From assembly GCF_964355755.1 (NCBI RefSeq), contig NC_092674.1:2790001-2854000 (forward strand): DNA of 64,000 nucleotides. Direction: 5' to 3'. This DNA comes from Antedon mediterranea. Its lineage: Eukaryota > Animalia > Echinodermata. The translations under genes and the position numbers were made by a program. Below are positions 516-64,000 of the stretch, one piece after another. How positions within the stretch are numbered: the first letter of the stretch is position 1; every line of letters starts with the position of its first letter. The notes under the pieces were generated by a model. The model was not told the DNA's origin and searched no databases. It saw only the letters and a program-made list of their open reading frames with translations.

Positions 516-593
516 GACACCAATTTTAAAGAGACACTTTTGATTTTGACACAAAGGTGTAATATGGGTTTTAATGTACAAACAATTCCTCAC

Positions 594-26253: not shown

Positions 26254-26562
26254 AGTGAGTGGCCGAGCGGTTAAGACAGTGGAACCGTAATCACGTAGCC
26301 ATAACATCGGCAGGGGTTTGAGGCTCACTCACTCCATGGTTCTGGTGGTAGAACGAGTCTTCTCGGATAAGGACTATAAACCGTAGGTCCAGTGTACACA
26401 ACTTGCTCGTGTGCACTTTAAAGAACCTAGTACATCTTTCGAGATGAGTAGGGGGTTACCCCGGTGTAGTAGTACATCACAGCCACTGATCACCAACTGG
26501 GCCCTCTGGGAGATCAGTCTTTGACTGAAGAGGTCACCCAGTATAAAGATAAAAAAAACAAA
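26254..26562 (+). mobile_element. Full-length tRNA-headed SINE with Deu/Nin-like core
   Basis: A box TGGCCGAGCGG, B-box-like GGTTTGAGGC, core CGGATAAGGACTATAAACCGTAGGTCC..TAAAGAACC..GAGTAGGGGGTTACCCCGGTG, A-rich tail, flanked by the direct repeat CAAAGAGTG. Confidence 0.85.
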
Positions 26563-26994: not shown

Positions 26995-27139
26995 TTATAT
27001 CACCCCGATAAGGAATTATATCACCCCGATAGAGAATTATATCACCCTGATGGGGAGTTATCACCCCGATAGGTAATTATATAACCCCGATAGGGAATTA
27101 TATCACCCCAATAGGGAATTATATCACCCCAATAGGGAA
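26995..27139. repeat. 21-bp minisatellite (TTATATCACCCCRATAGGGAA x7) overlapping the stop codon of the IL1R-like gene
   Basis: Units start at 26995, 27016, 27037, 27058, 27077, 27098 and 27119. The last unit encodes FPIGVI* on the minus strand. Confidence 0.9.
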
Positions 27140-33045: not shown

Positions 33046-33726
33046 TTTTTTAATCCTGAAAATGAAAAAATAATAATATTAATACAGTAAATTCAAACTA
33101 CATTTATTGAGCTTGGTTAAATTAATTTGCAACAATTATATTTATCAATTGACTTATAAATGAATGAACTTGAAAGTGGTTTGAAGAGTAACCACACTTT
33201 GAGGAAGTACGTACTTGTAGTTAAATTTAATATCAAATTTATTCTTTGTTTTTAATAAAATTTCTTTGAAATGTCTAGGTAAGTTATTAATTATATGAAC
33301 ATAGTCTAATCACGGAGGTAAAAAATAAATCTCCATGCTCCAATATAATTTTTTTTTCTATTGTAAATATGTACTGTAGCTACAGTATTTAATGTTAGGT
33401 TTTGCTTGAAGGATATAGCTTTTCTACAGGCATAAATTGATCAAAAGTAATAAAATATTGGATTGAAATGTAAACAATTAAAAGTGGAATACCTCTGAAA
33501 GTGTTTAAAAAAAAAATACATACCGATTTAAAATTCTTTAATGAAAATAACTTCTGCTGTCATCAGTGAATGGACTGTGAATGAAACTAAGCACTTATCT
33601 AACTTGTTTAATTACAGTACATGCAGTATCAAACGACCAATCACAATAGAATCATATAAAGGGGAGGAGCTAAAAGAGAGAACTTTTTTAGTTTACAAAA
33701 TATTTACAAAAATAGTGATTTTTGCA

Positions 33727-36155: not shown

Positions 36156-38803
36156 ATTTGTTTAACAGGAAAATCAGATAAACCATCAGATATTCAATTC
36201 AATGCAACATTATATCAATTATTACTCGACAAAAAAATATCAATAAAAATATTAAGCTGTGTTAATAGAAAATAAATAACAAATGACATACACGGTGACC
36301 GGATCCGTTCTTTCTGAGCCAGTAAGGTACGTTGTCTGATCGCCAACCAAACTGGCTTCAACCAGCCTTTCCATATAGTTTAGCTAGGCCTAGACTAGAT
36401 TTAGTACGCTTTGAATGAAAGACAAAACTTACCATTTTATGACCGGCATTATCCAATTATACAACTATCATTTCCATATGTTAAGAAAGATATACGGCGC
36501 CGTTTTATTTCATTATTTTGTACATGGACATTGAAAAAAGTTTAATAATCTTTGGTGCCGGTGGTTGTTACGGTGGATTATCCCTTCCGCAATAATGTAG
36601 AGGTCGCGCTTCAAATACTTTCCGCTCACAGACACCAGAGACACGGTGATGCTTTTGTCAAGCTAGCCAAAACAATAAGTCAGCCATAACCCAGCCCACT
36701 TTTATTTTTTCCAGCCAACAATGAAACGCCGTTTGTTTATTTTTTACATTTTCAGTGTTAATTATAGCTTTTATGGTATTATGAATTAAATATTTTGTGA
36801 GAAAACGGCGGATTGTTCCTGAGAGTCACTTGGTGGGATTATACTGGACCACTGGTCCCGTTTACTCAGCCCTCTCATCTTTAAAATTGGAGTGGAACTC
36901 GATTACGATTTTAAAATATAGTGAAATTTGATACTGTATTTGTGAGAAAATGGCGGATTGTTCCCGGGAGTCACTTGGTGGGATAATACTATAGGGTACA
37001 TCCTTAGTCGTCCAGTGTAAGTTAGAGTAGGACCACTGGTCCTGTTTACTCAACCCTCATCTTTAAAATTTGAGTGTAGCTCAATTACGATCACGTGAAA
37101 TACTTTTCCATTTTGTCCAACGTGAGTTTAGTAAGGCCTATTCACATTCAATTTATTCTTTACTTCAAATAATATCCATATAGAGAGAGTTGGCCATTAT
37201 ATAGGCCTACATAGGCCTAACATAAATAAATGTATTCTGAGAGGTATCAGAATAGGCTATATATAAAATAAATGATTTTACACCATCAGGCCAATGGGTA
37301 CAATATTTTGATTCAAGTTAGTTAGTTATCGCCATGGTTTTCGCATTATCAGCTCATTTCACACGGTTCAATTCGATTCTCAAGCATTACATAAAACCAA
37401 TTTATGAGTTTTTTAAGCATTTATCTAGTCTATATGCATTTTAACAATCCATAATATCACAAAGCAGCGAATGAAAACACGGAATTGGTGCATTGCGATC
37501 TGTAGGCCTGAGAGACACGATCACAATGTTTAAACAGTGAAAGATATGTTCTCCAAGAAGATATTCCAAAATGTTTTTTGTTTGTGTATTCAATATGCCA
37601 TTTTAATGTCAGATAATAGTCAAACTTCAAAAATTGGATCGGAAAAAAGGTAACTGTAATTTCAAAGCAAAACACAGTAAAATTGTCAGAAAATGTGTTT
37701 TTTGTTAAACTTATGTGAAATCGTTATTTTGGTCTATTTTTTCTACGAAAGTGAACATTTATTAAAACTGCAAGATGGCCTATTCAAATCATGATTAATT
37801 AATTTTTCATGTTTTTAAGGGAAACTTTAATCATCTTTAAATAAAACAAGATTAATATTAAAAAAGATGAACAAAAACAAATTTAAAATCATGTAATTTT
37901 ATTCCATAATTAAAAGCCCATACAAAGAATATCTACAACGTTTCCATCTAAATAAACTAATCAGACACCTTTTCTCGCTTTTAATCGCATTATAGAAATA
38001 ATTGTAAGTATAGGAACGTTGAAATATAAACGTTTAACAGACAAATCCACTACCAATTTTATTTAAATTAAAGTAGGCCTAAACTTAATCAAAATAAGCA
38101 AAACAAAACACGGCATGCGGATTAGTGTTGTGGTTATATTCTTAATTAATTTTCTAACAAATCTGTTATTTTTTCAGTCAATCTAGATAATTTAGAAAAA
38201 TTTACATTATACAGTACGATTTAAGGAAGTGTTTGGAAAAGCGGTAAAAATACAGGTTAAACATATTCATAGGCCCGGCATATTGTAATACATTATAATA
38301 AGAGATGATTTTAAGGCCAAGATGATTACCTAACATCTGATTAAATTAACAGAATAAATACAAATTGAAACCATGGCAAGTAGTAAGAAAGTACCCTATA
38401 CATTCATTCATCTTTTATTTCGGAAAAAAAAAATTAATTCTCCATAGCTCAAGAACAAAGAAAACAAAATATATATATAGGCCTATATAAATATAAATAT
38501 ATATAAAAAAAACACCTACGCCACATAGTCACGTGGTTAAAACAATAGCTTCATCCATCTATCACGTAGATTGGATGAAAGAAGAGCAAATTCATGAATA
38601 CATTTTGTGAAAATATAATATTGTCTGACCTCCCCAACCTGCACAACATGCCATACACCGGCTTACGTTGTAGTTCGTAGAACGAGCAGATGTGGTTTTC
38701 AACTAAAATGGTGCTGGCTCTGCATGACCTAGGTTTATTAAGTATATAGTATATAATATAGTAAAAATAACAGAGACATGCATAGAAAGTCTAAGAATGT
38801 GCA

Positions 38804-41800
38804 TTAAATATCAGTGAAATTAGGCCATTCTCCTACTAGACTCTCCATTTGTAGTTGCTCTTCAAAATCATCCTCTAATTTTTGCAACTGTTGTTTGAAT
38901 TCATTTTCTTTACCAAGCTTTGTTTTCTGAAAAATAACAATTCGGTCTAAATTTATATTTAGGCCTATATTTCAGATTCATTTTATATCGTCATAATGTT
39001 AAACAACTTAATACAAAACATATGAAATTCATTTTCCCAGAGACATTTAAAATTACACCAACAAACTAACAAATAATTTTTAAGTTTAAAATATACAAAA
39101 TACAAATATGCCTGTTTAAAAATTAAATTATATTTTTGATAATGCAAGTTATCATTATCATTACAAATAGTTTATGATTAAACAATAGGCTACTAAACTA
39201 ACCTGATTTGTTTCCAGTTCTTTTCCTGTTGCCTCTTTCTCCTTCAGTAACTGGATATCATTTAATATCCTTAAAAGTCTTTTGGACTCTTTTTGATATT
39301 CCAATGCATTTATTTGCCTTACAACTTGCTTTCCACTTTGTGTCCTTCTGAAATAGGTCGGTGATTTCCATTCATCAGGTATGGATGTGGCAGAAGGTGG
39401 GGAAAGATGTGATGTTGTCCTTGGTTTCACATAATATGCCACTGGTCCTGACCAGCTAAATCCAATGTAAAAAACAACTTCTTCCCGACTTTTAATTGTC
39501 GTTATCATAGTACTTGAAGAGGGAATAGTTATGGGTATGGATTCATATGTATACTGGTGTTTATAATTAATGGTATTGTTACCTGATAAGATGCCACTAG
39601 CCATAAATAGATTCTCTTTGACATAGCCACTCTGCCAGACTTGATCTGCCTGCTTTTCCAATTTACTTTGATTTGACGATATTTTGCTGTGGTGAACCAA
39701 TGCTTTCATACCTTTTCCATTTCCAAGGAAAAAGTGAACGCATGGCCGACTTCTCAAATGACCTCGATAAGGTCTGTGATGTGACAAATGTCCATCTTCT
39801 TGTTTATCCCGTTTCTGGGATGCATTCCAACGTTCCTTAATTTCCTTTAGAGACTTTTTCATCAAGCTGTTGTCATACTCCTGTGCCGGCTGACCTCGTG
39901 GCCAAAGCAACATGAGAAGAAATAATGGTGGATATAAGCTAAATCTCTGTTCGTCACAGTCACGTCTATCAAGTTCCTTAGCAAGATCGATCATTTCTCT
40001 GGTAGACGGCAAATCATACCGATATTTACCCTTTACGTTTACTGTCGACAGAGCTAAGTTTGTGAGCATAATGATTTTTAAGTCAAAGGCAGAGTAAGGC
40101 TTGTTTTCCAACAGCAACTTCCGAATTTCAAGCAGATTTTCAACTTTTTCTTCTTTAACTAACTCAAACACGTTTCTGATACTGACGCCACCAAGCTTGC
40201 GTGCTTTTAGGCGACGCACTTCATCTGCTGTTTCCGCTGATACAGACAATTTATTGTCGTCAAAAGAACCAAAATGTATTTCCCACGAAACAAAACATTT
40301 AGGAAGTCTAGACTTTATATCTTCAAATTCAGATTGACAAAAGTGTGTGAAGTTTGACCACTCTTTTTGAATTGTAATGTAGTTGATCAGTTTATCAATA
40401 GCCTCGTGTACATTTCTCATCAAACCTTTCATTTTCTTGTGATGTTCAGCCCACTTATCTAACACATCCGGTTTGTAGTGTTTGTCAACCAAGTATCTTT
40501 GTAGAATGCTTCGACCATTAGGAGATTGTTTGAATACATCAAGGCAAGCAAGAACATCTAACATATTAAATGTAATATTGAGCTCACCAGAGAAACTTGA
40601 CATATTTGTTTTATCATCAATTTCTTGTGATTTATGGAAACTGTCTATGCCATTAAAAGCCAATGTCAGCAACCTGCAACTATCATCTATGCTCAGTCCC
40701 TCATGTTTTAATACGTATTTACGATAAAATGATCGAATCAGTTCCTGCTTGTAAATTTGTCCTTTTGTGTCCCAATCAAAACAGTTGTTTTTTCTCATAT
40801 CAATAGCCTTATCTATAAACTCTAGGGCTTTAGTATGATCTTCCATTACCAGGTTGTAGTATCTTGCGATTTGTTGAGCAATCATTGGCTCTTTGAGAGT
40901 ATTAAATCCCTGAATAAGTACCTCACATGCTTTTTCTTTGCCGACATCTTTTATTGCCAATATAAGTGCCGAAAACAATTGTTTTGTAGAAGGACTCGGT
41001 CCTGTCTGATTCCTCTTGATAAGAAGATCTTGTGTTCGTGCAGCAAGATACTCTCGGCTATATGCAACAGCTGACAATAACTCGGACTCTAAATAAGTTG
41101 TCACTAATGAGCTCAGAGATTGCAAATTGGAGTGTTTTATGATAGCATCGGCTACTATTGGGTGAACTATTTTTAATCCTTGTACACTTCCTATGTCATA
41201 TGTCAACTGTACTCATCAGAACACGACAGCCTTCTGGCATAGTGTGTTCCCATGAACATCTTCGTTTCTTTTTTGCAGAAAAAGCAAACCCAATTAATTC
41301 GTCACAGCAAGAGACAGGAATTGCAGAATCTGGTTCAAATTTGCCGAATAACGAACAGAATTTTACCAATTCAAGTTCACGGGGACGGTGTTCTTCGAGA
41401 TCATCAATAATCCTTCCGACTGTACTTTGCACATAGTCAGATTTAAAATCTTCTTTCATTACCATAAAAGCAAGAAGGCGATCCGGCTTAAAATCTTCAT
41501 CACTTAGCATTTTGGTTTCAAGCTGATCATGCTTTGTCTGAAACCATTGTTTCTCTCTCTTATTCAATGATTGCCCTAACAATAAAGCATTGCAATCCTG
41601 AAGTAACGATTTGTCTTCTTTAATATCTCTTTGCGACATATATCTTCTACAACTGAGAATAACAAACGTACACCCTACAATGTGTCTTGTACTGTACTCT
41701 AATGAAATAACCATAGCTGTCAAGTCATTGTAAGGAAGGTTGTCACTAGCAATAACAAGAGGCAAACGTTCTTTTTGCAAATTGCAATCGCGTTCACCAT

Positions 41801-44800
41801 AGTTACACATTTCTAATATTTGATCTTTTGTCTGCTCAGTAATTTTGTTTAGAAGGACACATCTGTACTTCTTTCGAAACTCCCATAAGACATGTTTTAC
41901 AATCGTGCTTCCGCCAGCACCAGGTAGGTGAAACAGATGAAACCAACGAAATATTGCTTGGTTAAGCACTTTTTTCTGATGTGTTTGGTTAATCATGTTA
42001 TCAATTGCGTCTACTATTCTATTCTTGCCATCACGTTCACACACATGGTCATAGCCCATATCAGTGAACTTAAAATTCCAAAAGGAGAGTTTTTCTCCTC
42101 TGTAAAACTCTAACTCTGTATCTTTGCAGAAAGTATAGAAGTCTGGATTCTCTTCATTCATATCTGTGTTGTCACATTCATTATATGCAACAACAATAAA
42201 GTCCGTCCATTTCGAATCTTTCCATAATTGACATCCTTTGCCATTAACTGTTGGAAGAATGTAACTTGATTTTACATTTACACCTTGCATTTGTAAAATT
42301 ATATCATTCAAGCTTTTCAATGGAAGAACAGCTACTCTATCTTGTATTTCCTCAGGATTGCAGCATTTTTCGACGAGCTTACACCATTCCTTATAAACTC
42401 GGGAACTTTCGCAAATAAAAACCATATTTCTAATCCCAAAGTTTGTGTAAAACTTACGATATGCTTCACTCAGTACTTCAATGTTGTTAGGCAGCAAGAT
42501 AAAAATAACAAGACCTGTATCCTGTTGAATAACACTAATATTAGAAAAGAATTCAATAGCCTTATCCATATATTGGCTGCGTTCCTTAATCCACGTCATT
42601 CTGTCCATGGCATCGTCATCTTCCGTTCCTGTACGCCCGTTACAAAAGATCCATGCTGGAACTTCTCCGTAATTGATGTGAGATGGTGAAGTTACTGTGG
42701 CTAAATCATTTATGTCATAAAGATTTACCTTCTGTTTCAATCTCATTACCTTACATATGCCATTTTTATTTGAATTTTCATCAAAATCAAAGACAGCCTT
42801 CCATTTTACTTTACTAATAAACTCAAAAGTTTCATCAATGTTTTCAATGTCTGTACCAGGTACATTAACTACCAAGATTGCATTATAAACCAAATCAAAT
42901 GTTTTTTTCGATTGTGAGTCTCCAAAAAGCAATTCCCGAACCTTGTATTCGACTTCAGAAGCACATGATACATCGTGATCTGCCTTGGAACGTTTCTTCT
43001 TCCTTTTCTTGCTTGATTTACTTGCTTTACATTTTGGAATATTTTCCACTGCACCAATACTAGGCTGCAGGTCTTGTTTCGTTGATTTAATTAATGTATC
43101 AGTTTTAACAGAATCTGATGATGTAAGGTTTGCAGCTGACTTCTCAAGAATGTTTATCTGTTTGCTTCCTTTATCCTCATTTATCAGTCATATGGCCGAG
43201 CGGTTAAGGCAGGGGCGCCGTTTATCGTACCTAAAGAGCCAACAACAACATCGGCAAGGGTTCGAGGCCGACTCGCTCCTAGTTCTGGTGGTGGAACAAG
43301 TCTTCTCGGATAAGGACTATAAACCGTAGGTCCAGTGTACACAGTTATAACCTGTGTGTACTTTAAAGAACCCAGTTCATTATTCGAAAAAGAGTAGGGG
43401 GTTACCCCGGTGAACTGGTTCACACAATAGCGTCTGTATCAGGGGGATTACCACCTATCTGATAGGACAGTGATTAATTCACTATTGGTAATCCTTGGCC
43501 ACAGTGCCTAAAGACATAAAATAAAATAAAAAATTACACTTTGGAATGTGTATATCCATGCTCTTCTTCACTTGTTTAGGGTTTGTTTTAATATTTTCTA
43601 CTACTTTAGTTTTCTTTAATCCCGTTAAAGGTTCCAGTTTTTCTGAATCAGTTCTATATGTGAGTGTGACAGAATCGTCGGAACTTGTTATCCGTGTGTC
43701 TGAACTCTCCTTAACACATTTAGAACTTACTCCTGTAATTCCAATATCATCCACTCCTTCCTGTTCGATATTTTGAAACGTATGTGAAGATGAGGAAACT
43801 TCAGTTACACCAGGTTCAGGTTGCATTTCTCCGTCATTGAATCCCGTTCTTTCAGATTTCATTGATTTCGTTGCAGCAGTTGCTGAATTGATTTCAGCAT
43901 GTGTATTCACTTCTATAGGCTTTTTAATTTTTGCTGTTGGAGATTTTACATTTGTGTGAAAATCATACAAAATGACATCTGATTCTGAACTTTTCTCTAA
44001 ATATTTAGGCTTTACTTCAAAAGAAGCTGCGTCTAAAAATGTACTGCTTTCTCTGATTTCAGTATCAATGGACATTTTCTGCATATGCAAAACCAGCATA
44101 AGTGGACCAACTGGAAGATTGAAATCTTCTATAAAGTGCTCTTCTCGATATTGCAAAAATTTGAAACCATTCATATCCAAATGTGTAAATTTGTCTGCAT
44201 GTATAGGAGATAACCCTGCTCGTAATAATAATTTAGACACTGTTGTTGCACGACAGTCATCAGTTATAGGTTCCCAATTATCCTTTTGTCCTTCCAACAC
44301 CTCTTTTCTTTTCTTTTCTAGACTGTATTGAATCATGCGCAAGTCAGTCTTCTTAATTTCAAACTCTTTGAATATCTTGTCATGCTTATCTATAAGCAGA
44401 TTCTTTCCAATAAATTCCTGCTCATAAACCTGATTTGCAAGTTCTTTCAAACGAAGGTCCACTGAAAGCCATTCCCTCACCTCATTCCTATCCCACTCAG
44501 TTATTATCTTCTGGCTTTGGCCTTTAAACAAAAATAAAAGTTCACATACTATCTAAAAGTAATTGTTTAATGTTATATATAATGCCAGACTGAGGATACT
44601 ATACTTACCAACTTCTTTTAGTTTTGATAAAACTGCTGAGTACATGTTCTCGTCAATACGCGATGACAAAGTTTTGCAGAAGTGTTCAACTTCACTTTTT
44701 TCGACAAAGATCCTGGCTAGCTCTTGAATGAATTTTCCATTTTTGTGATTTTCCATCAGATTTTCTAAGGCATACGTATCATGAACTGCCACAATAATCT

Positions 44801-45374
44801 CTAACGATCCGGATGCTATACTTCGTAAGGCGAGACCCTTTCTTCGCATCAGAGCTTCAAGTTCAGACAGCTTCTCTAAAAATTCCTGATTAGTTTCTTC
44901 CCTGCATTTACCATCCAAGTTGTCTTCATAATATAAACCAAGGAGTAAAATCGCTCTCTGGACCGATTTCTGTTTACTCTCTCCTTGAACACTTTCATGG
45001 TTACCACGTTGTTCCTGTGTGTTTTCCTCGCTTCTTTTATGGATGTTGACTGTAATATCTATTTGTAACAAAATGAATATGGACACAATACAAAATAAGA
45101 GGTGCCATTTCGTTATATAGATTTGGTATGAAAATAAAACAAATTTAATTAATAATATATAATTTAATAGTTTATAACCCCAAATAAAAGCCAGTAGAAA
45201 TGCAATATGATTGGTCCTACATCTACTGTAAAAAATAATGTTACCAAAACAATTGTTCAAAACAATGTTGTTGTGTCCATCACATTGTATCTTTTCTTCT
45301 GATATGGTAAATTGTTTACCATCCTTAGTAACCACACGTTCTTCAGGTGAACTGCTGATATCTTGATCTGACAT
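38804..45374 (-). pseudogene. SAMD9-like STAND NTPase, copy B, disrupted (SINE insertion plus frameshift)
   Basis: Same 4-exon layout as copy A: 45245-45374, 44609-45058, 39203-44521, 38804-38926. Exon 3 is interrupted by an antisense SINE (about 43187-43533) that supplies a stop at 43482. A 2-bp loss at about 41200 shifts the frame (VDI* versus VNINELG in copy A). All SAMD9 motifs are otherwise retained (KWKAVFDFD, WIFCNGR, HLPGAGGST, FYIGFSWSGPVAY). Confidence 0.82.
43187..43533 (+). mobile_element. Deu/Nin-core-like SINE variant inserted in the coding exon of SAMD9-like copy B
   Basis: TGGCCGAGCGGTTAAG head, GGTTCGAGGCC B box, shared core, TAAAATAAAATAAAAAA tail. It is absent from copy A exon 3. 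A 3'-end fragment of the same family lies at about 53940-54010. Confidence 0.85.
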
Positions 45375-47379: not shown

Positions 47380-47759
47380 GTATCTTGAAAATAGTCTTTT
47401 TTCCAAACCAATAATTAGTAAAAACTAACCTTGACAAATAATAACGATCTATCATCAAACAGACTGACCTCTAGAGGGCCTATTCTGTTTAATGACAGGG
47501 TCATACACGTGACTGAGTTGGTGGGTGCCCTCGTCTCTGTTGATGATTTGGTTTCCTCGTCTGCGGATCCAGATGACCCTGTCATTAAACAGAATAGGCC
47601 CTCTAGAGGTCAGTCTGTTTGATGATAGATCGTCATTATTTCTGAAGAAGCTGTCCGATCAGGACAGCGAAACTGTCAAGGTTAGTTTTTACTAATTATA
47701 TTGGTTTGGAAAAAAGAATATTTTCAAGATACTACAAACCAGATGAACATTTTCAATCA
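47380..47759 (+). mobile_element. Penelope-like element 3' fragment with 5' inverted copy
   Basis: Flanked by the 12-bp direct repeat TAGTAGATCTAT (47368-47379, 47760-47771). Segment 47380-47503 is the inverted copy of 47572-47731. Contains a hammerhead core. Confidence 0.65.
47636..47684 (+). ncRNA. Minimal type-I hammerhead ribozyme motif (Penelope-type)
   Basis: CUGAAGA (47642-47648), stem II GCUGUCC/GGACAGC with GAUCA loop, GAAAC, then UGUC as the cleavage triplet context. Stems I and III are very short. Confidence 0.6.
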
Positions 47760-48760: not shown

Positions 48761-51700
48761 CTAGATCTCTTCCATATCTATCTGCTTTTTGAAATCATCT
48801 TCTAATTTTTTCATTTGCTGTTTGAAATCATGTTCTCTTCTCAGCTTTGCTTCCTGAAAATGAGAAAAAGATATCAAAATAGTTTTTCCAATTAGGGCCT
48901 ATGTTCTAAATGAAGAGGCCAAATCTTTGTAAAGAAATGCTACTTATTTGCTACCGTATTCAAAATGAAATCTAGAAGCATGTTGGTAACTGGAAACTAA
49001 TAACGATACAGTTATAAATCACATAAAGATGCTCATTAATAACAAACCTGATTTTGTTCCAGTTTTTTTCCTTGTCTAACCTTCATCTTAAGTGCTTCAA
49101 TTTCAATTACTTTCTTGTTAAGATCCTTGCGTTTCTTATGATATTCATCTACACTTATTTGGTGTACAACTTGCTTCTCTGTTCTTGAAAAAGCAGAGGG
49201 TCTCCATTCATCATGAGTCTGTCTGTATGTCATAGGCTCTGGTAAATGTGATGCTGCCTTTGGTTTTACGTAATATGCCACTGGTCCTCCCCAGCTAAAG
49301 CCAATGTAAAACACAACTTCTTCCCGACTTGCAAATGTTATGTTACTTGATGAAGCAAGTGGAAATTGAATGGATTCATCCATATAATCGTGTTTAAATA
49401 TTATGTTGTTAGTTTCTGATAAGGTACCTTCAACCTTTAACAAATTCTCTTTGACGTAAGCACTATGCCAGACTTGATCCTTTTCCAATCTAATTTGGGA
49501 TGATGATATTTTGGTTTGGTGTACCAGTGCTCTAAGACCCTTTCCATTTCCAAGGAAAAAGTGAACCAATGGCCTTTTACGAATTCGCTGACTTTTCAAA
49601 TGAGGTCCGTAAACTAGATGTCCATCTTCTTGTTTATCCTGTCTCAGTAACAAATTCCAGCGTCGTCGGGTTTCAAGTAGAGATTTCTTCATCAGACTGT
49701 TATCATATTCGTCTGCAGGTTGACCTCGTGGCCAAAGCAGCATAAGCAGATATACTGGTGCAAATAAAGTAAAGCTTCCTTCTTGTCGGTCACATTGATA
49801 AAATTCCTTAGCAAGGTCTATCATTTCTGTGACAGACGGTAAACTGTACTGACTTTTCTTCACATTCGTTATTGTTGATAACGCTAAGTTGGTCTGTATT
49901 ATTATTTTCAAATCGAATGCAGAGTAAGGGTTATTTTCTAACAGTAACTTTCTAATCTCTAACAATTTCTCTGTTTCCATCTCGAACAGCTTTCTGCCAC
50001 TGGTGCCAATAAGCTTTCGCGCTTTTAAACGACGTAGGTCATTTGCTGTTTCTACTGATACCTTGATTTCCTTATCAAGATCAATACAACCAAAATGTGT
50101 GTCCCATGAGCATAAGTAAGAAGCAATTAGCCTTTGTAGCTTGAAAGATTCATCAAGTTTTGTAAAGTTAGACCACTCCTTTTGGTATGTTAAATGATTG
50201 TTCATTGTATCAATAGCCTTGTGAACATTTCTCATCAAACCTTTCATTTTCATATGATGTTCAGCCCATTTGGCTAACACATCTGGTTTATAATCCTTGT
50301 CAACCAAGTAACGCTGTAAAATATTACGACCAGCAGGAGTTTGTTTAAATACATCAAGGCAGGCAAGAACATCTAACATCTTGAATGTAATATCAACTTC
50401 GCCAGAAAAAGTTGACATGCTTTTGTTATCATCAATTTCTTGAGATTTATGAAAAGTATCTATGCCATTAAAAGCTAGTTGCAAAAGTTTACAACTATCA
50501 TCTATGCCAAGTAACTCATTTTTTACAACATATTTGTTATAGAACGCTTTTATCAGTTCGTTTTTATAGATCTGTCCCTTTGTATCCAAAAGAAAAGAGT
50601 TGTTCCCTCTCATGCCAATAGCTATCTCTATATACTCTAACGCTTTGGAGTGATCTTCTATTATCATACTGTAGTACCTTGCAACTTGTTGAGCAATCAT
50701 GGGATCTTGTAGGATATGGAATCCTTCAATAAGCACATAACATGCATATTCCTTGTCAACATCTTTTATTGCCAATATAAGAGCAGAAAAGGGTTGCTTT
50801 ACAAAGGAAAGAAACCCTGTTTGATTTCTCTTTATAAGGAGATCATGTGTTTGTGCAGCAAGATATTTTCGACTATATGATTTTGCAGTGAGTAATTTGG
50901 ACTTCAAAAAATGTGTCACTAAGGAACTCAGAGATACTGAGTTTGCATCTACACGCAGGATAAAATCAGCTACAATTGGATGAACAATCTTTAATCCTTG
51001 TACAGCTCCCAGCTCATTTATGTTAACTGTACTCATCAGAAGAGAACAGCCGTCTGATATATTGTGTTCCCATGGACATTCTCGTCCTTTCTTTACAGAA
51101 AAGGCAAACCCAATGAACTCATCACAGCATGGGATCGGAATAGCGGAATCACGTTCAAACTTGCTGAATAATGAACAAAATCTGACTAATTCAAATTCTT
51201 GTGGATGCTGTTCTTTAAGATCATCAAGAACTCTGCCGACTGTATGCTCTACGTACTCAGATTGAAAGTCTTCCTTCATCACCATAAAAGCAAGAAGACG
51301 ATCCGGCTTAAAATCTTTGTCATCATCACTTTTCATTCTTCTTTCAAGCTGATCATGCTTTGCCTGAAACCATTTTTTTTCTTTGTCACTCAGTGAGTGC
51401 TCTAAAAAGAATGCTTTCTCTTTGTTACCATATTTATCTTCTTTGATATCACCTTTTGACATATATCTTTTACAATTCAAAATTATACACGTACGTCCTG
51501 GAATGTGTTTGGTACTGTATTCTAATGAAACAACCATGGCTGTCAAATCATCATAGAAAATATTATCGCTAACAATAACAAGAGGTAAACAAACTCTTTT
51601 ACCATTGTAATCTCGTTCTCCATAGTTCCACATGTCTAATATTTGTGCTTCGGTCTGATCAGTAATCTTATTTAAAAGAATACATCTGTATCTTTGCCGA

Positions 51701-54700
51701 AACTCCCATAGAATATGCTTGACAACAGTACTTCCACCAGCTCCAGGTTGGTGAAACAAGTGAAACCAATGAAAAACTGCTTGGCCAAGTGTTTTGACCG
51801 GCTGAGTTGGTTGTTTAATTTCGTTCTCAATTGCCTCTACCATGCTATATTTGACATCTCGTTGGCATACATGATCGAATTTGAAATTCCAAAATGAGAG
51901 TTTTTCCCCTCTATAAAAATTCAACTCGGTATCTTTACAGAATGTTTCGAAGTCCGGATGTTCTTTGTTCATATCTGTGTTGTCACATTCGTTGTATGCA
52001 ATCACCGATAAATCAACCCATTTAGATTTGTCTTTTTCCAACAGGTTACATCTTTTCCCATTAACTGTTGGCAACATGTAATCCGATTTCAAATTTACAC
52101 CTTGCATTCGTAAGATTATGTCATTGAAAATGTGGAATGGAACAACGACTAATCTTTCTTCTAGCTTTTCTTGATGACAGTACCGTCTCACTTGTTTACA
52201 CCATTGATCGAAAACCTGTCTCTGTTCACATATAAAGATGATACGATGGATGCCAAAGTCGGTATAGAACTTACGGAATGCTTCACTCAATACTTCAATG
52301 TTGTTAGGCAACAAGATAAAAATTACAAGACCTGAATCCTGTCGAATAATACAAGTATTTGAAAAGAATTCAACAGCCTTATCCATAGCTTGACTGCGTT
52401 TCTCGATCCAGGACATTCTGTCCATTTGTGAAACATCAATATCTGATCGCCCATTACAAAATACCCATGTTGGAACTTCTGCATAATTTATTTCAGATGG
52501 TGAAGTTACCTTGGCTATGTCTGTTATGCCGTAAAGATTTACCTCCTGTTTTGATCTCATTGACTTGCAGATGCCACTTTTGTTCGAATTAGCATCAAAA
52601 TCAAAGACAGCCTTCCATTTTACTTTTGATATAAACTCAAAAGTTTTATCGACATTTGGAATTTTCGTACCAGGTACATCAATTACAAGGATCGCATCAT
52701 AAACTATATCAAATGTAGTTTTTAATTGTGAGTCTTCAAGCAGCAATTCCCGAATTTTGTGTTCAGCTTCAGAATAATCTGATATATCCGTTGTTGTGAC
52801 ACGTTTCTTCTTCTTTTTCTTGCTCGATTTATTTTCTTTAAACACATGTTTGTCACGTGTGTCGTATTCTTGTTTATTGCTCTGTATACTTTTTGGGACT
52901 TTCGCTATTGCACCAATACCAGTTTGCAGCTCTTTTCTATCAGTTCCAAGTTGTGTTGATTTGATTGTTTTGTCAGTTGCAACTGAATACAAAAGGGAAT
53001 TCCCTGTTTTACCACCTAATCCTGATTGAGATTCTCTCTCTTCTCCATCACCTCTATTATCACAGCCTTCAGATTGCGAGTCAATGTTTGAAGCAGAATT
53101 ATCGGCAAAGGTCGGGCGTGTGCCCAGACTTTCCTTGAAACATTTAGACTTCAACTCTGTATTTTCAATCTTCTGCTCTTCTTTTTGCTGAGTGTTTATT
53201 TCAATGTTGTTAATACTTTCTTCTGAAGTAGCATCTTCTTTTTTAATTCCTGCTGTTGGAGATTTGACGTTTGTAGAACTGTCAGAAATGGCTATATCTG
53301 TATTTGGACTTGGACCAAACTCCTCCACATCTTTCTCATTTTGAATGTTAGACTTACTGACAGCGCCATGTAATACTTTACTGCTTTCTCTAATTTCTGC
53401 ATCACTGGACAATGTCTGGGGAACTTGTGATATGTTCTGCATATGTAAAACCAACAATAGTGGTCCACTTGTCAGATTAAAATCTTCCACAAAGTGCTCT
53501 TCTCGATATTTCAAAAACTTAACACCAGTCATATCCATGTTTGCAAATTTTTCTGCGTGAATCGGAGGTAATCCTGCCTGAAATAATAATTCAGATACTC
53601 TTGTTGCACTACAGTCATTAGTTACAGTTTTCCAACTATCCTCTTTTCCTTCCGGTAAATCTTTCCTTTTCTCTTCTAGACTGTATTGAATCATGCGCAA
53701 GTCGGTCTTTTTAAGTTTAAACTCCTTGAATATCTTGTCGTGCTTATCTATAAGCAGATTCTGTCCAATATATTCCTGCTCATAAACCTGATTTGCGATT
53801 TCTTCTTTCAGACAAAGTTCCATTGAGAGCCATTCTCTCACTCGGTTCCTATCCCACTCGGATATTAACTGATGGCTTTGACCTTAAATGATAAAGTGTT
53901 AAAATGATATCTAAATTGAACACAACTATATGATGGCCATTGATTAATTTACCATTAGTAATTCTTGGCCACATGTGCCTAAATACATTTTTAAAAAATA
54001 AATAAATAAATTGAACCCAACAAATGTAAATGTATCTTTATTATATTACTGCATGAACAGCTGATAAGTTGAGTTACATGCACTTATAATACTGAACAGG
54101 AAATATAAGATAATTAATTGTCTACCCATGAAATGGCGTTGTGAACTCAATATATGAATTGAACCAAATGATCCAATTAAACGATTAAATGATTCAGTAA
54201 ATTTAAAAACAGTCATATGTACTTAAATTACCATAGAAAGCAGCATTCCTGATGAATACTTACCAACTGGTTTTAGTTTTGATAAAACTGCTGTGTACAT
54301 GTTCTCGTCAATGTTCGATGACCAACTTCTGCAAAAGCGTTCAACTTTGCTTTCTGTGGCGAAGATTTTCGCAAGCTCTAGAATAACTTTTCCACTTCTG
54401 TGATTTTCCATCAGTTTTTCTAAGGCATACGTGTCATGAACTGCCACAGTGATCTCCAACGATCCTGATCTTATACTTTGTAAATCGAGGCCCATTTTTC
54501 GCATCATAGCGTTAAGTTCAGAGATCTTCTCTAAAAGTACTTGCCTAGATTCTTCATCGCATTGACCGTCCAAATTCTCTGAGTAAAACCAAATAGTACG
54601 TAGTAACTCTTTCTCGACCGTTTTTGGTTTATGTTGCTCTTGGTTGTGTTCAGGGTTACGTTGTTTGTCCTTATTTTCAAGTTGTTTGTTTTTGTTGTTG

Positions 54701-55214
54701 ATGTTGATTGTAATATCTATTTAAATCAAAATTAAAACGGCTAAAACATAAATAAAACTGAAAACAGGCGGTGTCTCTTTTTTTATATAAAGCATTTACG
54801 TAAGCAGCAACCTGATTATTTACGACCGATGTTGCCGATGAGTGAAAGAGATTAGGTCACAAAAGTCACTGAGATGCCCACAGCATATTCAAAGTAAAGT
54901 AGAATAAGCCTTTCACTAATGTTATATATGTTTAATTTTTTTTAACCAAATGTTTTAAATATTTTTATATCGTAGGCCTACTATGAAATACACTGAAAAA
55001 AAATTCCTATTTACGAAATAAAGTGAAATGGAAATGTAAATTGTATTGATCTAACGTAAAAGGTAGCATTCTTACTACAATTGTTACAATTTTTAAAAAC
55101 ATTGTTGTTGTTTCCTTCAAGACATATCTCTAGTGGTGAAATCGTCACTTTATTACCAACTTTAGTATAATGAACCACAGGTTCGGGTGGACTGCTGCCA
55201 TCTTGATCTGACAT
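48761..55214 (-). CDS. SAMD9: SAMD9/SAMD9L-family STAND NTPase, copy A, intact, about 1839 aa, atypical architecture (RHIM-like, TRADD-N-like, 2xSAM, linker, SIR2-like, P-loop, TPR, OB, eIF2A-like tail)
   Basis: Exons 55076-55214, 54264-54716, 49048-53882, 48761-48853 join in frame (5520 nt). SAMD9-specific motifs: KWKAVFDFD, PTWVFCNGR, NECDNT, FYRGEKLSFWNF, HLFHQPGAGGST (Lys-less Walker A as in SAMD9), ILWEFRQRYRC, AFMVMKEDF, IVHPIVA, QQVARYY, DTKGQIYK, LLWP, HFFLGNGKG, FYIGFSWGGPVAY. The family call is secure; one-to-one orthology is not claimed. Confidence 0.92.
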
Positions 55215-58669: not shown

Positions 58670-58978
58670 TATATAACACCTATATAAATTCCTGTCATTT
58701 GATTGGACGAATGTGGGTCACATGGCGTGCAATAGTACGCACTATTCAACGATCGTTAAATAGTACTTTTTGAAAAATTTTTGTTTGTTATTTAGATGTT
58801 ATATAAAACAAATAATGAATGTTTTGTATTCGTGTAATGGTACAAATAATGGCACTTGGTGAATGATGAAAGGTTATATCAACTCGGCTTTGCCTCGTTG
58901 ATATAACCTTTCATCATTCACCTCGTGCCATTATTTGTACCATTGCACTCATAAACATTCATTATTTGTATAATAATT
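58670..58978. mobile_element. Hairpin-ended non-autonomous element (possibly Crypton-associated)
   Basis: About 165-bp imperfect palindrome 58808-58969 centred on AACTCGGCTTTGCCTCGTT, preceded by a GATTGG..GGTCACATG block. Confidence 0.5.
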
Positions 58979-61222
58979 ATCAAGTCAAGTCATCAATATT
59001 ATTAAATGACAATGAATGTCAATGATTTTAAAATATATCTGAATTGTTCTAGTTTTTCGACTGCCTCATTGTGCATAAATGATATATTCACTTTTAGTAT
59101 CCTTTTGAGTAGGCCTAGAATAAAGTCTATAAAAATAAGTGGTTACTTTTTCTGTTTTTAAGTTTTGCTTAAAGGTCGAACAATAAGTGGAATAATAAGT
59201 GATTATTAAAAACAGTAATATTGTAAACTGTATAACAAATAAAGACCATTTCCGGAGTTTCCTAGAAAGGATTAAATGAAAGGTTGTTGAACTTGAACGA
59301 TATCATGATCAAACAATGCTATTTGTTCCTTTATTTCACACTTATAAATGCCTACTAAGCCAACCTATAGAAATAATGTTATCATTGGTTAGCTGGGCCA
59401 TGACGGATTTTCTTTCCTCCATCCATAGTTAAGCCTATATTCACATTGTCATTCTTGGTTGTCTTTGTACGCAACGCAACGACGTAGGCGCAACGCACGT
59501 GAGTTGACCGTTTTAGACTATCTTTTGTTGCAAATGCTATTCATATTTTTAATTCACGATTTAAGAGAAGTTTGTAATTCCGATGCCTTCACTATTCATA
59601 CCTGTACAGTATATTATAAATATTTTTGTGTAATTTGTTTTTAAGTATTTTAAATATGTTATGGTCTTTTTATATTTTTATTCTTGCCAAGGAAGACAAT
59701 TTTCATAATGTAATTTTACTTATTCTATGACAAATAAAATTGTATCTATCTATCTATTCCAGTGATCCATCGCGTCGTAACGTAGCAGACCAAATGTCGT
59801 GTGAAATAGAAACAAAAAGTGACGCTTCATCAACATTTATTTCAAAAAATGTAAATTTGAGGCATATTATAACAACATTAATATACCTATAAATCTATTT
59901 TACAAGAATGTGGTAACGTTTTGAAATAATAAATTTATTCTGCACTTTCACGTTGTTTGAAAACAATGCGAATTGTTTATTTGCTTCAAGTGTTCTGCTT
60001 TGTAATTCACCAAATAATACTACAATTAAAAACTCTGGAGGAACTGTTTAAAACGGGGCTACATAAAATTTCAGAACTGATAAGTTCAAAGGGATTTGAC
60101 ACGACACCGGTTAATTCGAAGAACCGCGGAAGTAGCGGCTCAAGTCGTTGAATAATGTATACTATTATGTGTGTATGTGAATGCTGTTGTCATTACGGGT
60201 TGTTGTTGTGAATACATTACAAGGTTGACGGTAAGTCGTACAGTCGTATTTTCACTAAAAGTATCATATCAATCTATTCAATATTCAGACGATTTACAGT
60301 ATTTGATAGTTCTATGAGGGATATGTATTTTTACATCTCAATAGTCCTCCTATTGTTCATATACTGTGTGTAAAGTTTAATGTGTTTACCGGTTCTTGGT
60401 TGTATACAGATTCGTGTTATCCACTTTAGCAATATGGGATTGGCTTCCGCTGTTCACAGTTCATAACTGGGGTTGACATTGTACAATAGACGGGATATAA
60501 GAAGTTAGGCCTATCTACTAAGGGTAAGATATCTATTATACAATATTGAATTTAATATAATATATAACAACGGCGTCTGTACCAGTAAGTGGGGATGCAA
60601 CTGAACGGCTTGGAACTAATTACTATCTCCATAATAATTGATCTATTACTGTAGTATTTATAATGTAGTAATATTTAACCACTTTTGATTTCAAATCATC
60701 AGAATCAAAATCGTAAATCATGATCATTCAGCCTCACGTTGAAGGAAAGTTGTAAGCGGCATAATAAATCTTACATCAATTTAAAAAAAAAAACACTTTC
60801 TAATTTATAAAGCTAATGTCAGACTGCAGATTGGAAAAAAGGGTCCTATAAAATACTCATAATAATATACTCATAAATAAATAAAAGTAGAAAACATTTA
60901 ATGAGGGTGATGTGTGGTTGGTGTTTTTTTAAAAGAAAATGGAAACCTTCCTTTATCACCTCTAGTCCTCGATAATACATTAATTGCTGTTGTAAATTGT
61001 TGGTGACATTAACGTGTGCATTATGTATACGAATTCATGATTAATTAACAATATGCTCAACGAATTCACGTCATAATTAGATGACTTAAAGTGGACACCA
61101 TGATAGATGACATTTACGTACTTGCGTGGGCCTATATTAAAAGCATGTACATGACACCGAAACATAATGCTTACATTCACAATTATGTTTCTTTATATTT
61201 ATTAGAATCAAACTAAGATAAA

Positions 61223-63032
61223 ATGACGGCACATCGTCATAGCAACTATGTTGAAGTACTGTTTGTGTTGCTAGTTGTCTTAGTAGTAACAGTTGTTGCA
61301 GATGACGTTTGTGATAGGACAACACCAATAGGTAACTTACTAAATCTTGTTTCCCACTAGGACGCAACGCAAGGACGTTAGCGCAACGCAAGTGATTTTA
61401 CCAGTGAAGAGTGACATATTTGTTTAAACTCTTCCCTGATTTGACTAATCATGACGCAATGGATTATTTGAACTGCGCTTATGATTAGTCAACTCGCTTG
61501 CGTTGCGCTTACGTGGTGCGTTACGTCCTAGTGAGAACCTAGCTTTACTGGGATATAGCATTGATGTGACTATTGATAGTGGAAAAAATAGGATTTCCGT
61601 CGATGGGGTGGACAATGAACGAGTAGCCCTAAGTGATGGTGCCGGGACGTAATTGACCGGTGACGGGTATTGATAAGTGGCAAAAATCAACCTGACAATG
61701 AAATGGCGTCGAGTGACAAAAATGACAATAACATTCGAATTCAACAAATTGCATTATTTAATAAAATTAACCAATTTGACGACGGCGCTGATATCATGAC
61801 GATGGCTACAGCAGAACCGTACACTTATGTGTAGGTCTCACGTAATGCGACATGACGTCATTCCACACTCATAGATACAGGGCACCATGACCCCTTTCCC
61901 AGTCAGTCTTCGCTGTTGATGACGGACGGAGACAAATGAATGCAATGACGAAGAAAAATACCGTTAAGGCCAATTTACACAGACGAGCGGCAACGGTAAT
62001 AAAATATATAATCTATGTTATTCCTTATGACCATTTACACACAACGCTTAGGATAGATACATCATTATTCTACGTGGGACAAGCTACGCGGTTCCGCTTA
62101 CCGTTACCGGTCGCCTGTATAAATTGGCCTTTAGTGAAATAATACTGATTCTTATTTCTCAAGGTAACAAGTTATCATTCTACGCAACACAGAAGAGTAC
62201 ATATGTTGAAATAAGAAAGTACTTCTACATTAAATGTTGTGCACAGTGGTATGATACCATTGAATGGTACAAGGATGTGATCAGTCCATCAACCCGTATC
62301 GGTCAAAGGTCAATACCTAGTGGCTGCAATCATTGTGGTGTCCAGCACGCCTTTACGTTCAAAGAGAATGGACAAGTGTTGAAAGTGAGAGAAAGTGTTA
62401 AAGACTACCATACGGGAACTTATATTTGTGTTATAAGAAATGGGACGGTTAATGAGACTTTCAAACAAGATGTAACAGTACAACGTAAGTCATCAGAATT
62501 GGTATTTTTTTTATTCTATTCAAAAGGTTAACCCATATTTAAAATGCATTTTCATTTATGCAGAGAATATATAAATAAATAAACAAGGTCATATACATGG
62601 CTGCAGTCGCGTGCTCAAGTTAGTGTTTACCACCGACCAACCGACCGACATGAGCTGTTGTAGAGTCGCATTGCACGCGACTAAAAACAATATTGAACAG
62701 AAAAATGTAGACGTGGCGCGTGTAAATGTTCATTTAGTTCATCCTTCCTATCTTTAATTTAATCAATGTGCTTTCGTCCATTTAGCTATAAATAATTTAC
62801 AATCATCTACAAACCTGACACTCGCTAACGACGAATGTGAACTGAACGTGTATGCGAATATTGGTGACAACACAACAATTTGCTGCACGTTCTCACAGTT
62901 GACGCTGGATTTTGACATACGATGGGAAAGAACGATAAATGGTACAGAATTCATCCATCTAATCAAATCCGAAGGAACTAAAAAGGAGTTTGAATATACG
63001 ACATTTGTTGCGTATACAACTTACTTTAAATC
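61223..63032 (+). CDS. Second IL-1R-like Ig receptor paralogue, 3'-partial
   Basis: Exons: 61223-61331 (MTAHRHSNYVEVLFVLLVVLVVTVVADDVCD, signal peptide), 62164-62484 (Ig1: IKCCAQWYDTIEWY..TGTYICVIRN), 62786-63032 (first half of Ig2: ANIGDNTTICC..IRW). Phases match the 27-33 kb gene and the third exon has the same 247-nt length. TM and TIR are not seen within the window. Confidence 0.82.
62582..62687 (-). mobile_element. Short Helentron/HINE-like element
   Basis: Same termini (CACGCGACTAAAAA, AGTCGCGTG, AACAAGG) and (GACC)n core as the element at 45436-46204. Confidence 0.6.
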
Positions 63033-64000
63033 GTAAGTATTGTATAAAATATTAATATTATGTTTAAAAATACAGTAACCTCATGAAAGCGTGTACAGTA
63101 GGCCTATTACACTGACAACCAATTTTAAGCAATTGCTAATCATGTTCTCTTCACATAGGCCTACACCGTGCATAAACCACGCCTTTTAGTTTCACGCGTA
63201 TAGATTTGTGATTGTTATATTATTACCAAGCAGTTGTCAATAAAATGAACGCAGTGGTAATATGATGTACTGAATTTCAATTTGAATATGGGGTTCTTTT
63301 TGTGTAATGCCACCTGAATGCGATATAATATCCGTTATAGTGGCACAAAAATGATTTAATGACCTTCCCGACGAAATTAAAATGGCACCTTCAAAAAAAA
63401 AATTTTCTTTTAAACTTAAACAAATTCTACTCGATAAATAACTTATAATAATAAATGAACATATATATTCTGGTTTTTCTGTGCTTTCATAGTATTTTAT
63501 TATTATTAACTTGTCGTTGTCTTGTTTTGTTTCTGTTTGTTCAAACTTCAATATGATTACAACTTCTTAACTGGTTACCCGTCACAAGTTTTTTTTTGTT
63601 TTGTTATTCTTTCTGGGTTTTTTGCCTCTTAATTATTTATATTTAAATTGTTATTTTGTTTACTTTGAAAGATAAGAAATAAATGTTATGATGATGATGA
63701 TGATTGTTTGTAGGCTAGTAGTGACGTATTCATTGTGTCTACAGGTCTGCCTCCTATTGTCTTAAATAAATTATACAGTATAACCATGGAGTTATAAATT
63801 CCATGGTATAATAAAAAATAAGGGATGCAGTTAAATACAGGTGTTGTAACTTCCTTAGGAAGGAAGTAGGTAATGCATAGAGGAATATAATAATACCTCC
63901 ATGGGTGATACTCAGATTCCCACTTAGAGAACCAACGTAAGTGATTTGACCAATCACAAGTGATGGATCATTCGAATTGTCGCTTATGATTGGTCGATTC

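What the first reader, a model, noticed from the sequence alone, without database searches (positions are those of the whole stretch)
54264..54610. TRADD-N-like domain on its own phase-1/phase-1 exon fused to SAMD9
Seen: RKMGLDLQSIRSGSLEITVAVHDTYALEKLMENHRSGKVILELAKIF in copy A, and RRKGLALRSIASGSLEIIVAVHDTYALENLMENHKNGKFIQELARIF in copy B (44609-44950). The segment is conserved between copies and sits on a symmetric, shufflable exon. Known: the G-S-L-x-I-x-V...L-E-x-L...S-G-x-L pattern characterises TRADD-like N-terminal domains expanded in invertebrate immune proteins, and vertebrate TRADD-N binds the TRAF2 MATH domain. Inference: NTPase oligomerisation could recruit TRAFs and converge with signalling from the neighbouring TIR receptors.
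Basis: partly seen in the sequence, partly recalled or inferred. Interest (0 to 1): 0.7.

Follow-up and report, generated by a model that had tools for sequence, protein, structure and literature searches.

The report
TRADD-N exon heading feather-star SAMD9-like gene
One exon adds a known immune adaptor domain (TRADD-N-like) to the front of a feather-star relative of the antiviral protein SAMD9 that lacks SAMD9's tRNA-cutting part, so this protein likely signals to a partner instead of cutting tRNA; the same domain layout is already catalogued in starfish and sea urchin.

Summary
Real, and largely known. Copy A from mid-exon onward is identical to NCBI XP_071949915.1, Antedon mediterranea SAMD9-like. 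Contigs of a probable RNA run splice this exon to the SAM exon in copy B and paralogues. Pfam TRADD-like_N is sub-threshold (15 bits), but 19 of 69 homologues pass it, their profile scores A/B at 37/41 bits (shuffles 6.6 at most), and the GS turn is kept. Fold searches were inconclusive. Kaur et al. 2021 already list TRADDN-DEDD2+SAM+STAND in starfish and urchin, and state that MATH is not a universal partner, so TRAF recruitment is unsupported; nothing links the gene to the neighbouring Ig-TIR gene. Added here: the AlbA tRNase is absent; a phase-1 donor appears conserved at the domain end (23 of 29 homologues); SAMD9-attached TRADD-Ns are not one clade; a short G-N-N-N motif precedes the domain; copy B is disrupted. 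The scan noted the same layout before in a sea urchin (e1-7881579).

The parts
54264..54716 (-). Copy A exon 2, 453 nt, phase 1/1: whole TRADD-like N-terminal domain (probable first strand at the exon start, loop, extra helix, core with GS turn, last helix at the exon end)
   Evidence: Splice sites; translation; Pfam PF20694 E 0.02, 15.1 bits, below cut-off 23.7; profile of Pfam-positive homologues 36.8 bits; model
55076..55214 (-). Copy A probable exon 1 (ATG; donor uncertain among phase-1 sites 55088, 55079, 55076), ending in a short beta-type G-N-N-N motif
   Evidence: X5 paralogue contigs reach 55084-55085, which disfavours the early donor at 55157; Anneissia orthologue has the same segment
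49048..53882 (-). Copy A exon 3: two SAM-like domains, low-complexity linker (no AlbA/tRNase), SIR2-like, STAND NOD with H-x-x-G-x-G-G-S Walker A, TPRs, OB
   Evidence: Human SAMD9 structures E 5.7e-88 from residue 395 on; AlbA profile negative with leave-one-out controls; SAM assignment from likeness to relatives that hit Pfam SAM, no direct Pfam hit
48761..48853 (-). Copy A last coding exon (short coiled-coil-like tail)
   Evidence: NCBI model P0004 mapped by tblastn
44609..45058 (-). Copy B exon 2, 450 nt, phase 1/1, same domain
   Evidence: 40.8 bits on the homologue profile; spliced contig identical over 44608-44904 in X5
45245..45374 (-). Copy B probable exon 1 with the same motif
39203..44521 (-). 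Copy B exon 3, SAMD9-like core, interrupted by a dispersed-repeat insertion with a stop (about 43190-43484) and a frameshift near 41197: probable pseudogene or truncated product
   Evidence: a DNA contig 38671-42099 with no difference spans the frameshift in X1 and X2 (these runs may be the assembly's own source)
38837..38929 (-). Copy B last coding exon
   Evidence: tblastn

Best explanation
A phase-1/phase-1 exon encodes a divergent TRADD-like N-terminal domain at the front of a feather-star SAMD9-like STAND protein that lacks the tRNase domain, and the domain likely works as a protein-binding adaptor or switch that the activated sensor would cluster to engage a partner, probably not a TRAF. 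Shown here: exon structure, splicing to the SAM exon (copy B and paralogues), family membership by profile, loss of AlbA, retention of the nucleotide-binding residues. Taken from human SAMD9: an ATP-bound closed state that opens and self-associates, bringing the flexibly tethered N-terminal parts together. Inferred: in echinoderms the N-terminal slot holds a recruitment module (Death domains in urchin, ubiquitin-like in starfish and brittle star, a short beta motif in crinoids) followed by TRADD-N and SAM, so the output is assembly of a signalling or cell-death complex rather than tRNA cleavage, with the GS turn as the contact surface. The module is mobile within each echinoderm class, most simply by shuffling of this symmetric exon.
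For: Homology: 70 representatives at E<=0.001; 19 of the 69 scanned pass the Pfam TRADD-like_N cut-off; a profile of those 19 gives A 36.8, B 40.8, Anneissia 53.2 bits against at most 6.6 for 200 shuffles and under 1 for reversed sequences; a crinoid-side profile built without starfish rows recovers 17 of the 19 at E<0.01 scaled to 1.8e9. ESM Atlas top clusters 0.93, TRADD-like N. GS or GC at the turn in 65 of 72 rows, GS in both copies, the hallmark named in PMC8195603. Hit P0020 matches letter for letter a row of that paper's TRADD-N alignment (compared by eye). [quoted passage not shown] AlbA absent from P0004-P0007 and both B parts while each left-out AlbA carrier is found at E 5.6e-30 or better. 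Walker A H..G.GG[ST], a basic Sensor-1 region and the WHD His are kept, as defined in PMC13600222. Mobility: partners of the domain include Death, DED, ubiquitin-like, NACHT-LRR, Roc, ankyrin, TIR, B-box, RING-NHL; SAMD9-attached copies are rejected as one clade, p-AU 1.5e-6; 23 of 29 homologues that end just after the domain read G[KEMRN] there, as a read-through of a G|GT donor would, against 13% background.
Against: Direct Pfam score is below threshold in A and absent in B; the window-only profile does not reach the starfish domains. The two AlphaFold models disagree on the strands and neither shows a clean four-stranded sheet (pTM 0.62 and 0.57). The copies lack the family's usual W and Y after the turn. 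NCBI's model of copy A starts mid-domain, and no RNA contig identical to copy A across these exons was seen. No partner is identified and no function has been tested for any invertebrate member; the switch model is the proposal of PMC8195603, not a result. The tree test used 32 of 72 rows picked after a first tree, on a short domain. The read-through test is indirect: the genes behind those proteins were not seen.
Confidence: 0.6

Rival explanations
1. One reading: oligomerised SAMD9-like protein uses TRADD-N to recruit TRAF MATH domains and feeds the same NF-kB-type pathway as the neighbouring TIR receptor.
For: Vertebrate TRADD-N binds the TRAF2 trimer (PMC7593343 passages); the Ser that contacts TRAF2 is kept as GS; clustering by a STAND protein would suit a trimeric partner; an Ig-TM-TIR gene lies about 6 kb beyond copy B.
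Against: PMC8195603: MATH is not a universal partner and is not co-expanded; the TRADD clade is vertebrate-only. In that paper's alignment human TRADD has aromatic residues on strand 1 and a longer H-R-S-D-P turn, whereas the crinoid's probable strand 1 has no aromatic residue and a short GS turn (comparison by eye; that these TRADD residues are contacts is partly recalled). Animal gene neighbourhood is weak evidence of a shared pathway.
Confidence: 0.15
2. The domain is an internal clamp: it packs on the SAM or SIR2-like part of its own chain to help hold the protein off, and the output comes from another part (SAM polymer or the exon-1 motif).
For: PMC8195603 proposes contact with both flanking domains; the domain sits directly before SAM in all echinoderm SAMD9-like carriers seen.
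Against: A roughly 225-aa low-complexity linker separates the head from the core; the same domain is moved onto unrelated partners, which fits a portable adaptor better than a tailored clamp.
Confidence: 0.15
3. The domain is degenerating in this lineage or is a passenger, and copy A is made as the truncated form that NCBI predicts.
For: dN/dS A vs B 0.66 in the domain against about 0.31 in SAM and TPR/OB; NCBI start mid-domain; copy B disrupted; models form the sheet poorly.
Against: 49% identity and full length kept in Anneissia; open frame and both splice sites kept in both copies; spliced in several paralogue contigs; faster change is reported for expanded TRADD-N families; the dN/dS rests on 120 codons and one probably broken copy.
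Confidence: 0.1

Closest known systems
[quoted passage not shown] 2021, PMC8195603, Figure 4-source data 1; e.g. Acanthaster XP_022110147.1, XP_022081709.1; Strongylocentrotus XP_003727489.1, XP_011668610.1)
   Same: Domain order TRADD-N, SAM, SAMD9-type STAND core; 29% identity over the core to XP_022110147.1; no AlbA in that protein either.
   Different: Crinoid subfamily of the domain with an extra helix and loop before the core; no Death or ubiquitin-like domain in front, only a short beta motif; two SAM-like units; the crinoid domain is nearer to crinoid TRADD-Ns on other proteins than to the starfish SAMD9 ones.
Human SAMD9/SAMD9L
   Same: SIR2-like, NOD with non-canonical Walker A, TPR, OB core (E 5.7e-88); SAM domain upstream.
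   Different: No AlbA/Schlafen tRNase, the human effector; TRADD-N-like head instead.
Vertebrate TRADD N-terminal domain (PDB 1F3V with TRAF2)
   Same: Same superfamily according to PMC8195603; conserved Ser at the beta2-beta3 turn.
   Different: Different clade; no direct sequence or fold match obtained here; TRAF binding known only for the vertebrate clade.
RHIM and fungal NLR amyloid signalling motifs (PMC4262963)
   Same: Short G/N-rich beta-type motif in the slot where relatives carry Death domains, N-terminal to a STAND module.
   Different: Spacing is hydrophobic-x-hydrophobic-x-G-x-x-N, one residue off the RHIM core (core spacing recalled); no Pfam RHIM match at E<=10; assembly untested.

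Membership tests
TRADD-N superfamily, DEDD2/TRADD-like group (Pfam PF20694) | Pfam PF20694 score at or above 23.7 bits | tested here: not met
   A 15.1 bits (E 0.02), B no hit. The two published starfish/brittle-star-type carriers P0035 and P0072 also score only 16.2 and 15.3, so the model under-calls this group.
TRADD-N superfamily, DEDD2/TRADD-like group (Pfam PF20694) | Significant profile homology to recognised members | tested here: met
   19 of 69 hits pass the cut-off; their profile scores A 36.8 and B 40.8 bits, shuffles 6.6 at most; the hits were pre-selected by a profile containing A and B, but a crinoid-only profile recovers 17 of 19.
TRADD-N superfamily, DEDD2/TRADD-like group (Pfam PF20694) | uS (GS/GC) motif at the beta2-beta3 turn | tested here: met
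   GS in A, B and Anneissia (which reads C-G-S); GS 58 and GC 7 of 72 rows; definition.
TRADD-N superfamily, DEDD2/TRADD-like group (Pfam PF20694) | RRM-like alpha/beta plait with four-stranded antiparallel sheet | tested here: inconclusive
   Model 1 forms the beta2-beta3 hairpin but lacks the first 30 residues; model 2 forms strands 2-5 and 131-134 but hardly the hairpin. Fold searches were dominated by the helical hairpin.
Vertebrate TRADD clade (TRAF-binding) | Binds the TRAF MATH domain | not testable with these tools
SAMD9 family | SIR2-like + STAND NOD + TPR + OB core | tested here: met
   phmmer to SAMD9 structures, residues 395-1539, E 5.7e-88.
SAMD9 family | Non-canonical Walker A (GGT/S) with upstream His; Sensor-1 Arg; WHD His | tested here: met
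   HQPGAGGS, LNCKR, IVHP aligned and to human; Walker B reads S-D-N instead of D-D.
SAMD9 family | AlbA_2/Schlafen tRNase domain (core in vertebrates; lost in some members per PMC5445408) | tested here: not met
   Profile from four carriers: no positive domain score in P0004-P0007 or copy B; leave-one-out controls E 5.6e-30 to 1.8e-53.
RHIM / amyloid signalling motif (exon 1) | RHIM core pattern or Pfam RHIM match | tested here: not met
   No RHIM hit at E<=10 for either exon-1 peptide; core-spacing pattern found 0 times upstream of the domain in 70 homologues.
RHIM / amyloid signalling motif (exon 1) | Self-assembly into cross-beta filaments | not testable with these tools

The most novel reading that the evidence does not exclude
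Echinoderms rewired the SAMD9 sensor from a tRNA-cutting enzyme into a signalosome: a portable phase-1/1 TRADD-N exon, traded among immune genes separately in each class, took the place of the tRNase, and in crinoids (and one starfish protein) a non-RHIM amyloid-type G-x-x-N motif in front of it nucleates a filament that recruits the downstream death or transcription machinery, as fungal NLRs do.
Probability: 0.2. Interest if true: 0.65.

Novelty: new member of a known kind. Interest (0 to 1): 0.3.

Why it matters
It extends a catalogued echinoderm architecture to crinoids (and, through P0072, brittle stars), so the fusion is seen in four classes. It offers a natural effector swap on the SAMD9 scaffold: the same sensor core without the tRNase, which makes it testable whether SAMD9 activation is a generic clustering switch, and what an invertebrate TRADD-N binds. 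The exon-phase evidence offers intron-mediated shuffling as a route for the domain's great architectural variety; the main text of PMC8195603 proposes retrotransposition and contains neither 'exon' nor 'intron'.

Tried and rejected
No whole genome is held, so paralogue number and exon phases at other loci could not be read; extra contigs at 80% likeness in X1 and X5 only show that further paralogues exist. No RNA holder was listed for the stretch; X5 came as a same-species addition and its kind is a guess. Fold searches: Foldseek gave no match at E<=0.001 for either model; VIA-align gave best Z 5.2-5.8, all on the helical hairpin, and no TRADD chain among the 50 rows shown; this shows neither likeness nor difference. 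Sequence searches of the PDB with A2 and A3 did not list TRADD at E<=10; the top hits were designed helical repeats, rejected as chance. Word-based search with A2 among 64-210 aa proteins: 0 of 1672 candidates. Second Atlas call on Anneissia residues 1-190 scored only 0.77, lead level. Pfam DUF3793 and DnaI_N on copy B and DUF4215 on exon 1 are below cut-off and rejected. Hit P0017 (bacterial Ig repeats) was dropped as a false positive before alignments and counts. The 'core1' row of the dN/dS table was read out of frame and is discarded. The early exon-1 donor (55157/45320) was dropped in favour of a later one. No linear TRAF-type motif in exon 1 or 2; the single PxExxY in the core is of chance grade. 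The motif count (2 upstream hits in 4354 positions against 1 in 33055) used a pattern drawn from those same proteins, so it is descriptive only. The first 72-row tree is a quick tree; the careful search did not finish. Complex prediction (planned: four copies of the exon-1 motif) was not available: no verdict. Paper searches: 'TRADD-N'+'SAMD9' gave one paper, on Avs5 (listing only); searches listed nothing on echinoderm SAMD9 or on TRADD-N exon phases (listings only; the library lacks most subscription papers).

Full report
Locus. The window holds two tandem minus-strand genes, A (about 55.2-48.8 kb) and B (45.4-38.8 kb), 74% alike in DNA over the core. Copy A from the middle of the exon in question onward is identical to NCBI XP_071949915.1, 'sterile alpha motif domain-containing protein 9-like' of the feather star Antedon mediterranea. 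An Ig-TM-TIR gene lies at about 27-33 kb (TIR_2 E 2.7e-8, Ig_3 E 9.9e-8) and an Ig-domain gene starts at about 61 kb on the other strand, with no TIR seen inside the window.

Observation. The quoted peptides are there. In run X5 (contigs; RNA is the tool's guess) two contigs remove exactly the 381-nt intron and a third bridges it, whereas the DNA run X1 shows no such exact joint. They are 80-90% like A, and one is identical to B over 44608-44904, so splicing is shown for B and paralogues, and for A only through NCBI's model. NCBI's protein starts mid-domain; the Anneissia japonica orthologue XP_033110345.1 carries the whole domain (49% identity) and the upstream segment, so I take NCBI's start as probably truncated. 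A and B are 63% identical over the 120-aa core of the domain, no more than elsewhere; dN/dS is 0.66 there against about 0.31 in SAM and TPR/OB. Copy B has a repeat insertion with a stop in its large exon and a frameshift near 41197.

What the domain is. Pfam TRADD-like_N scores only 15 bits on A and nothing on B. A four-sequence profile found 70 representatives at E<=0.001 among 1.84 billion. Of the 69 scanned (all but the window's own protein), 19 pass the Pfam cut-off and 2 fall just short; one is a false positive. A profile of the 19 scores A 36.8, B 40.8 and Anneissia 53.2 bits, against at most 6.6 for 200 shuffles; a profile of crinoid-side rows alone recovers 17 of the 19 at E<0.01, but reaches the starfish SAMD9 domains only weakly (20-29 bits), and the A+B profile does not reach them. 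ESM Atlas ranks TRADD-like N clusters first at 0.93. The GS/GC turn is in 65 of 72 rows. The crinoid subfamily has an extra helix before the core, and the probable first strand lies at the very start of the exon, so the exon matches the whole domain (inference). Structure prediction did not settle the fold: the models have mean pLDDT 71 and 81, pTM 0.62 and 0.57, and disagree on the strands; the fold searches are told under Tried and rejected.

What it is fused to. The large exon matches human SAMD9 structures from residue 395 (E 5.7e-88) and keeps the His/GGS Walker A, the Sensor-1 Arg region and the WHD His (roles from PMC13600222, passages). The AlbA tRNase is absent: a profile from four relatives that have it finds each left-out member at E 5.6e-30 or better and nothing in A, B, Anneissia, Acanthaster or P0007; the corresponding stretch is a low-complexity linker with 19% hydrophobic residues. 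Loss of AlbA in some members and Death-type heads in invertebrates were already noted (PMC5445408, parts 1-2 of 4 and a supplement search).

Prior art. Kaur et al. 2021 (PMC8195603; abstract, sections 8 and 10-13 read, passages, supplement searches of 12 of 13 files, file 4 cut when stored) list 10 rows with TRADDN-DEDD2+SAM+STAND in Acanthaster and Strongylocentrotus, 8 named 'sterile alpha motif'. Two of my hits are those accessions. Their main text does not contain 'SAM', 'exon', 'intron' or 'RHIM' as words, so the link to SAMD9 is tabulated, not discussed. A brittle-star protein, XP_072035535.1, has ubiquitin-like+TRADD-N+SAMD9 core. PMC12680541 (passages) has no occurrence of 'TRADD' or 'echinoderm'.

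Mobility. The domain sits beside Death, DED, ubiquitin-like, NACHT-LRR, Roc, ankyrin, TIR, B-box and RING-NHL domains; only 2 of the 69 hits carry the SAMD9 core. In trees the crinoid SAMD9 domains join other crinoid-type TRADD-Ns and the starfish ones join a separate group that includes a starfish NACHT-LRR protein; holding the six SAMD9-attached domains together is rejected at p-AU 1.5e-6 (32 of 72 rows, chosen after the first tree; direction of transfer unknown). Among 70 homologues, 29 end within 60 residues of the last conserved Tyr, and 23 of these read G[KEMRN] 9-18 residues after it, as the window's own exon does when its donor is read through; background is 13%, and 13 of the 41 longer ones also do. 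I read this as a phase-1 donor conserved at the domain's end across lineages; it is indirect, and says nothing of the 5' phase. That 1/1 exons are the usual shuffled class is recalled knowledge.

Mechanism. Human SAMD9 is ATP-bound and closed, opens into asymmetric dimers, and is proposed to bring its tethered tRNase domains together. With the tRNase gone, the same clustering would act on the motif-TRADD-N-SAM head. I put 0.6 on an adaptor or switch with a non-TRAF partner, 0.15 on TRAF recruitment, 0.15 on a purely internal clamp and 0.1 on a degenerate passenger. Against TRAF: PMC8195603 states that MATH is not a universal partner, and TRAF binding is established only for vertebrate TRADD (PMC7593343 and PMC7215387, passages). 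No call links these genes to the TIR gene beyond proximity.

Exon-1 motif. A, B, Anneissia and starfish XP_022107081.1 share hydrophobic-x-hydrophobic-[DE]-G-x-x-N-x-V just before the domain, where urchin members carry Death domains. RHIMs occupy such slots in amphioxus (PMC4262963, passages), but this motif fails the RHIM tests and could be an extra hairpin of the domain. It is the boldest open lead and is untested.

Verdict. Interest 0.3.

Noticed in passing
window 55076-55135 and 45245-45295 (-): Short G-N-N-N beta-type motif at the end of exon 1, shared with Anneissia and one starfish SAMD9-like protein; amyloid-like by eye, not RHIM by pattern or Pfam.
   Followed up: partly
window 43190-43484 and about 41197: Copy B has a dispersed repeat (other copies at 26260-26481, 31180-31406, 29227-29392, 7177-7273) inside its large exon and a frameshift, yet a spliced contig identical to its exon 2 exists; if translated it would give a head-only protein (motif, TRADD-N, SAM pair) that could act as a decoy.
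   Followed up: partly
window 54490-54716 (-): NCBI's model XP_071949915.1 begins mid-domain and probably misses exon 1 and the 5' half of exon 2; a second possible acceptor at 54578 is not conserved in B.
   Followed up: partly
window 27119-33078 (-): IL-1-receptor-like gene: signal-peptide exon, Ig exons, transmembrane exon, two TIR exons.
   Followed up: partly
window 61217-64000 (+): Second gene with a signal-peptide-like exon and Ig-like exons, running off the window; no TIR seen inside it.
   Followed up: no
window 13928-17683 (-): Long coiled-coil protein exon (930 aa), only sub-threshold coiled-coil Pfam hits.
   Followed up: no
window 1-537, 4225-5009, 22238-22823: Tandem repeat arrays (about 148-nt unit at 4.2-5.0 kb) and several palindromic dispersed repeats (47380-47732, 58802-58975).
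   Followed up: no
P0015, P0027, P0031, P0038, P0063, P0022, P0024: A crinoid expansion of the same TRADD-like domain on unrelated partners (B-box, TIR, Roc/DED, ubiquitin-like), annotated as uncharacterised and missed by Pfam at E<=1e-4.
   Followed up: partly
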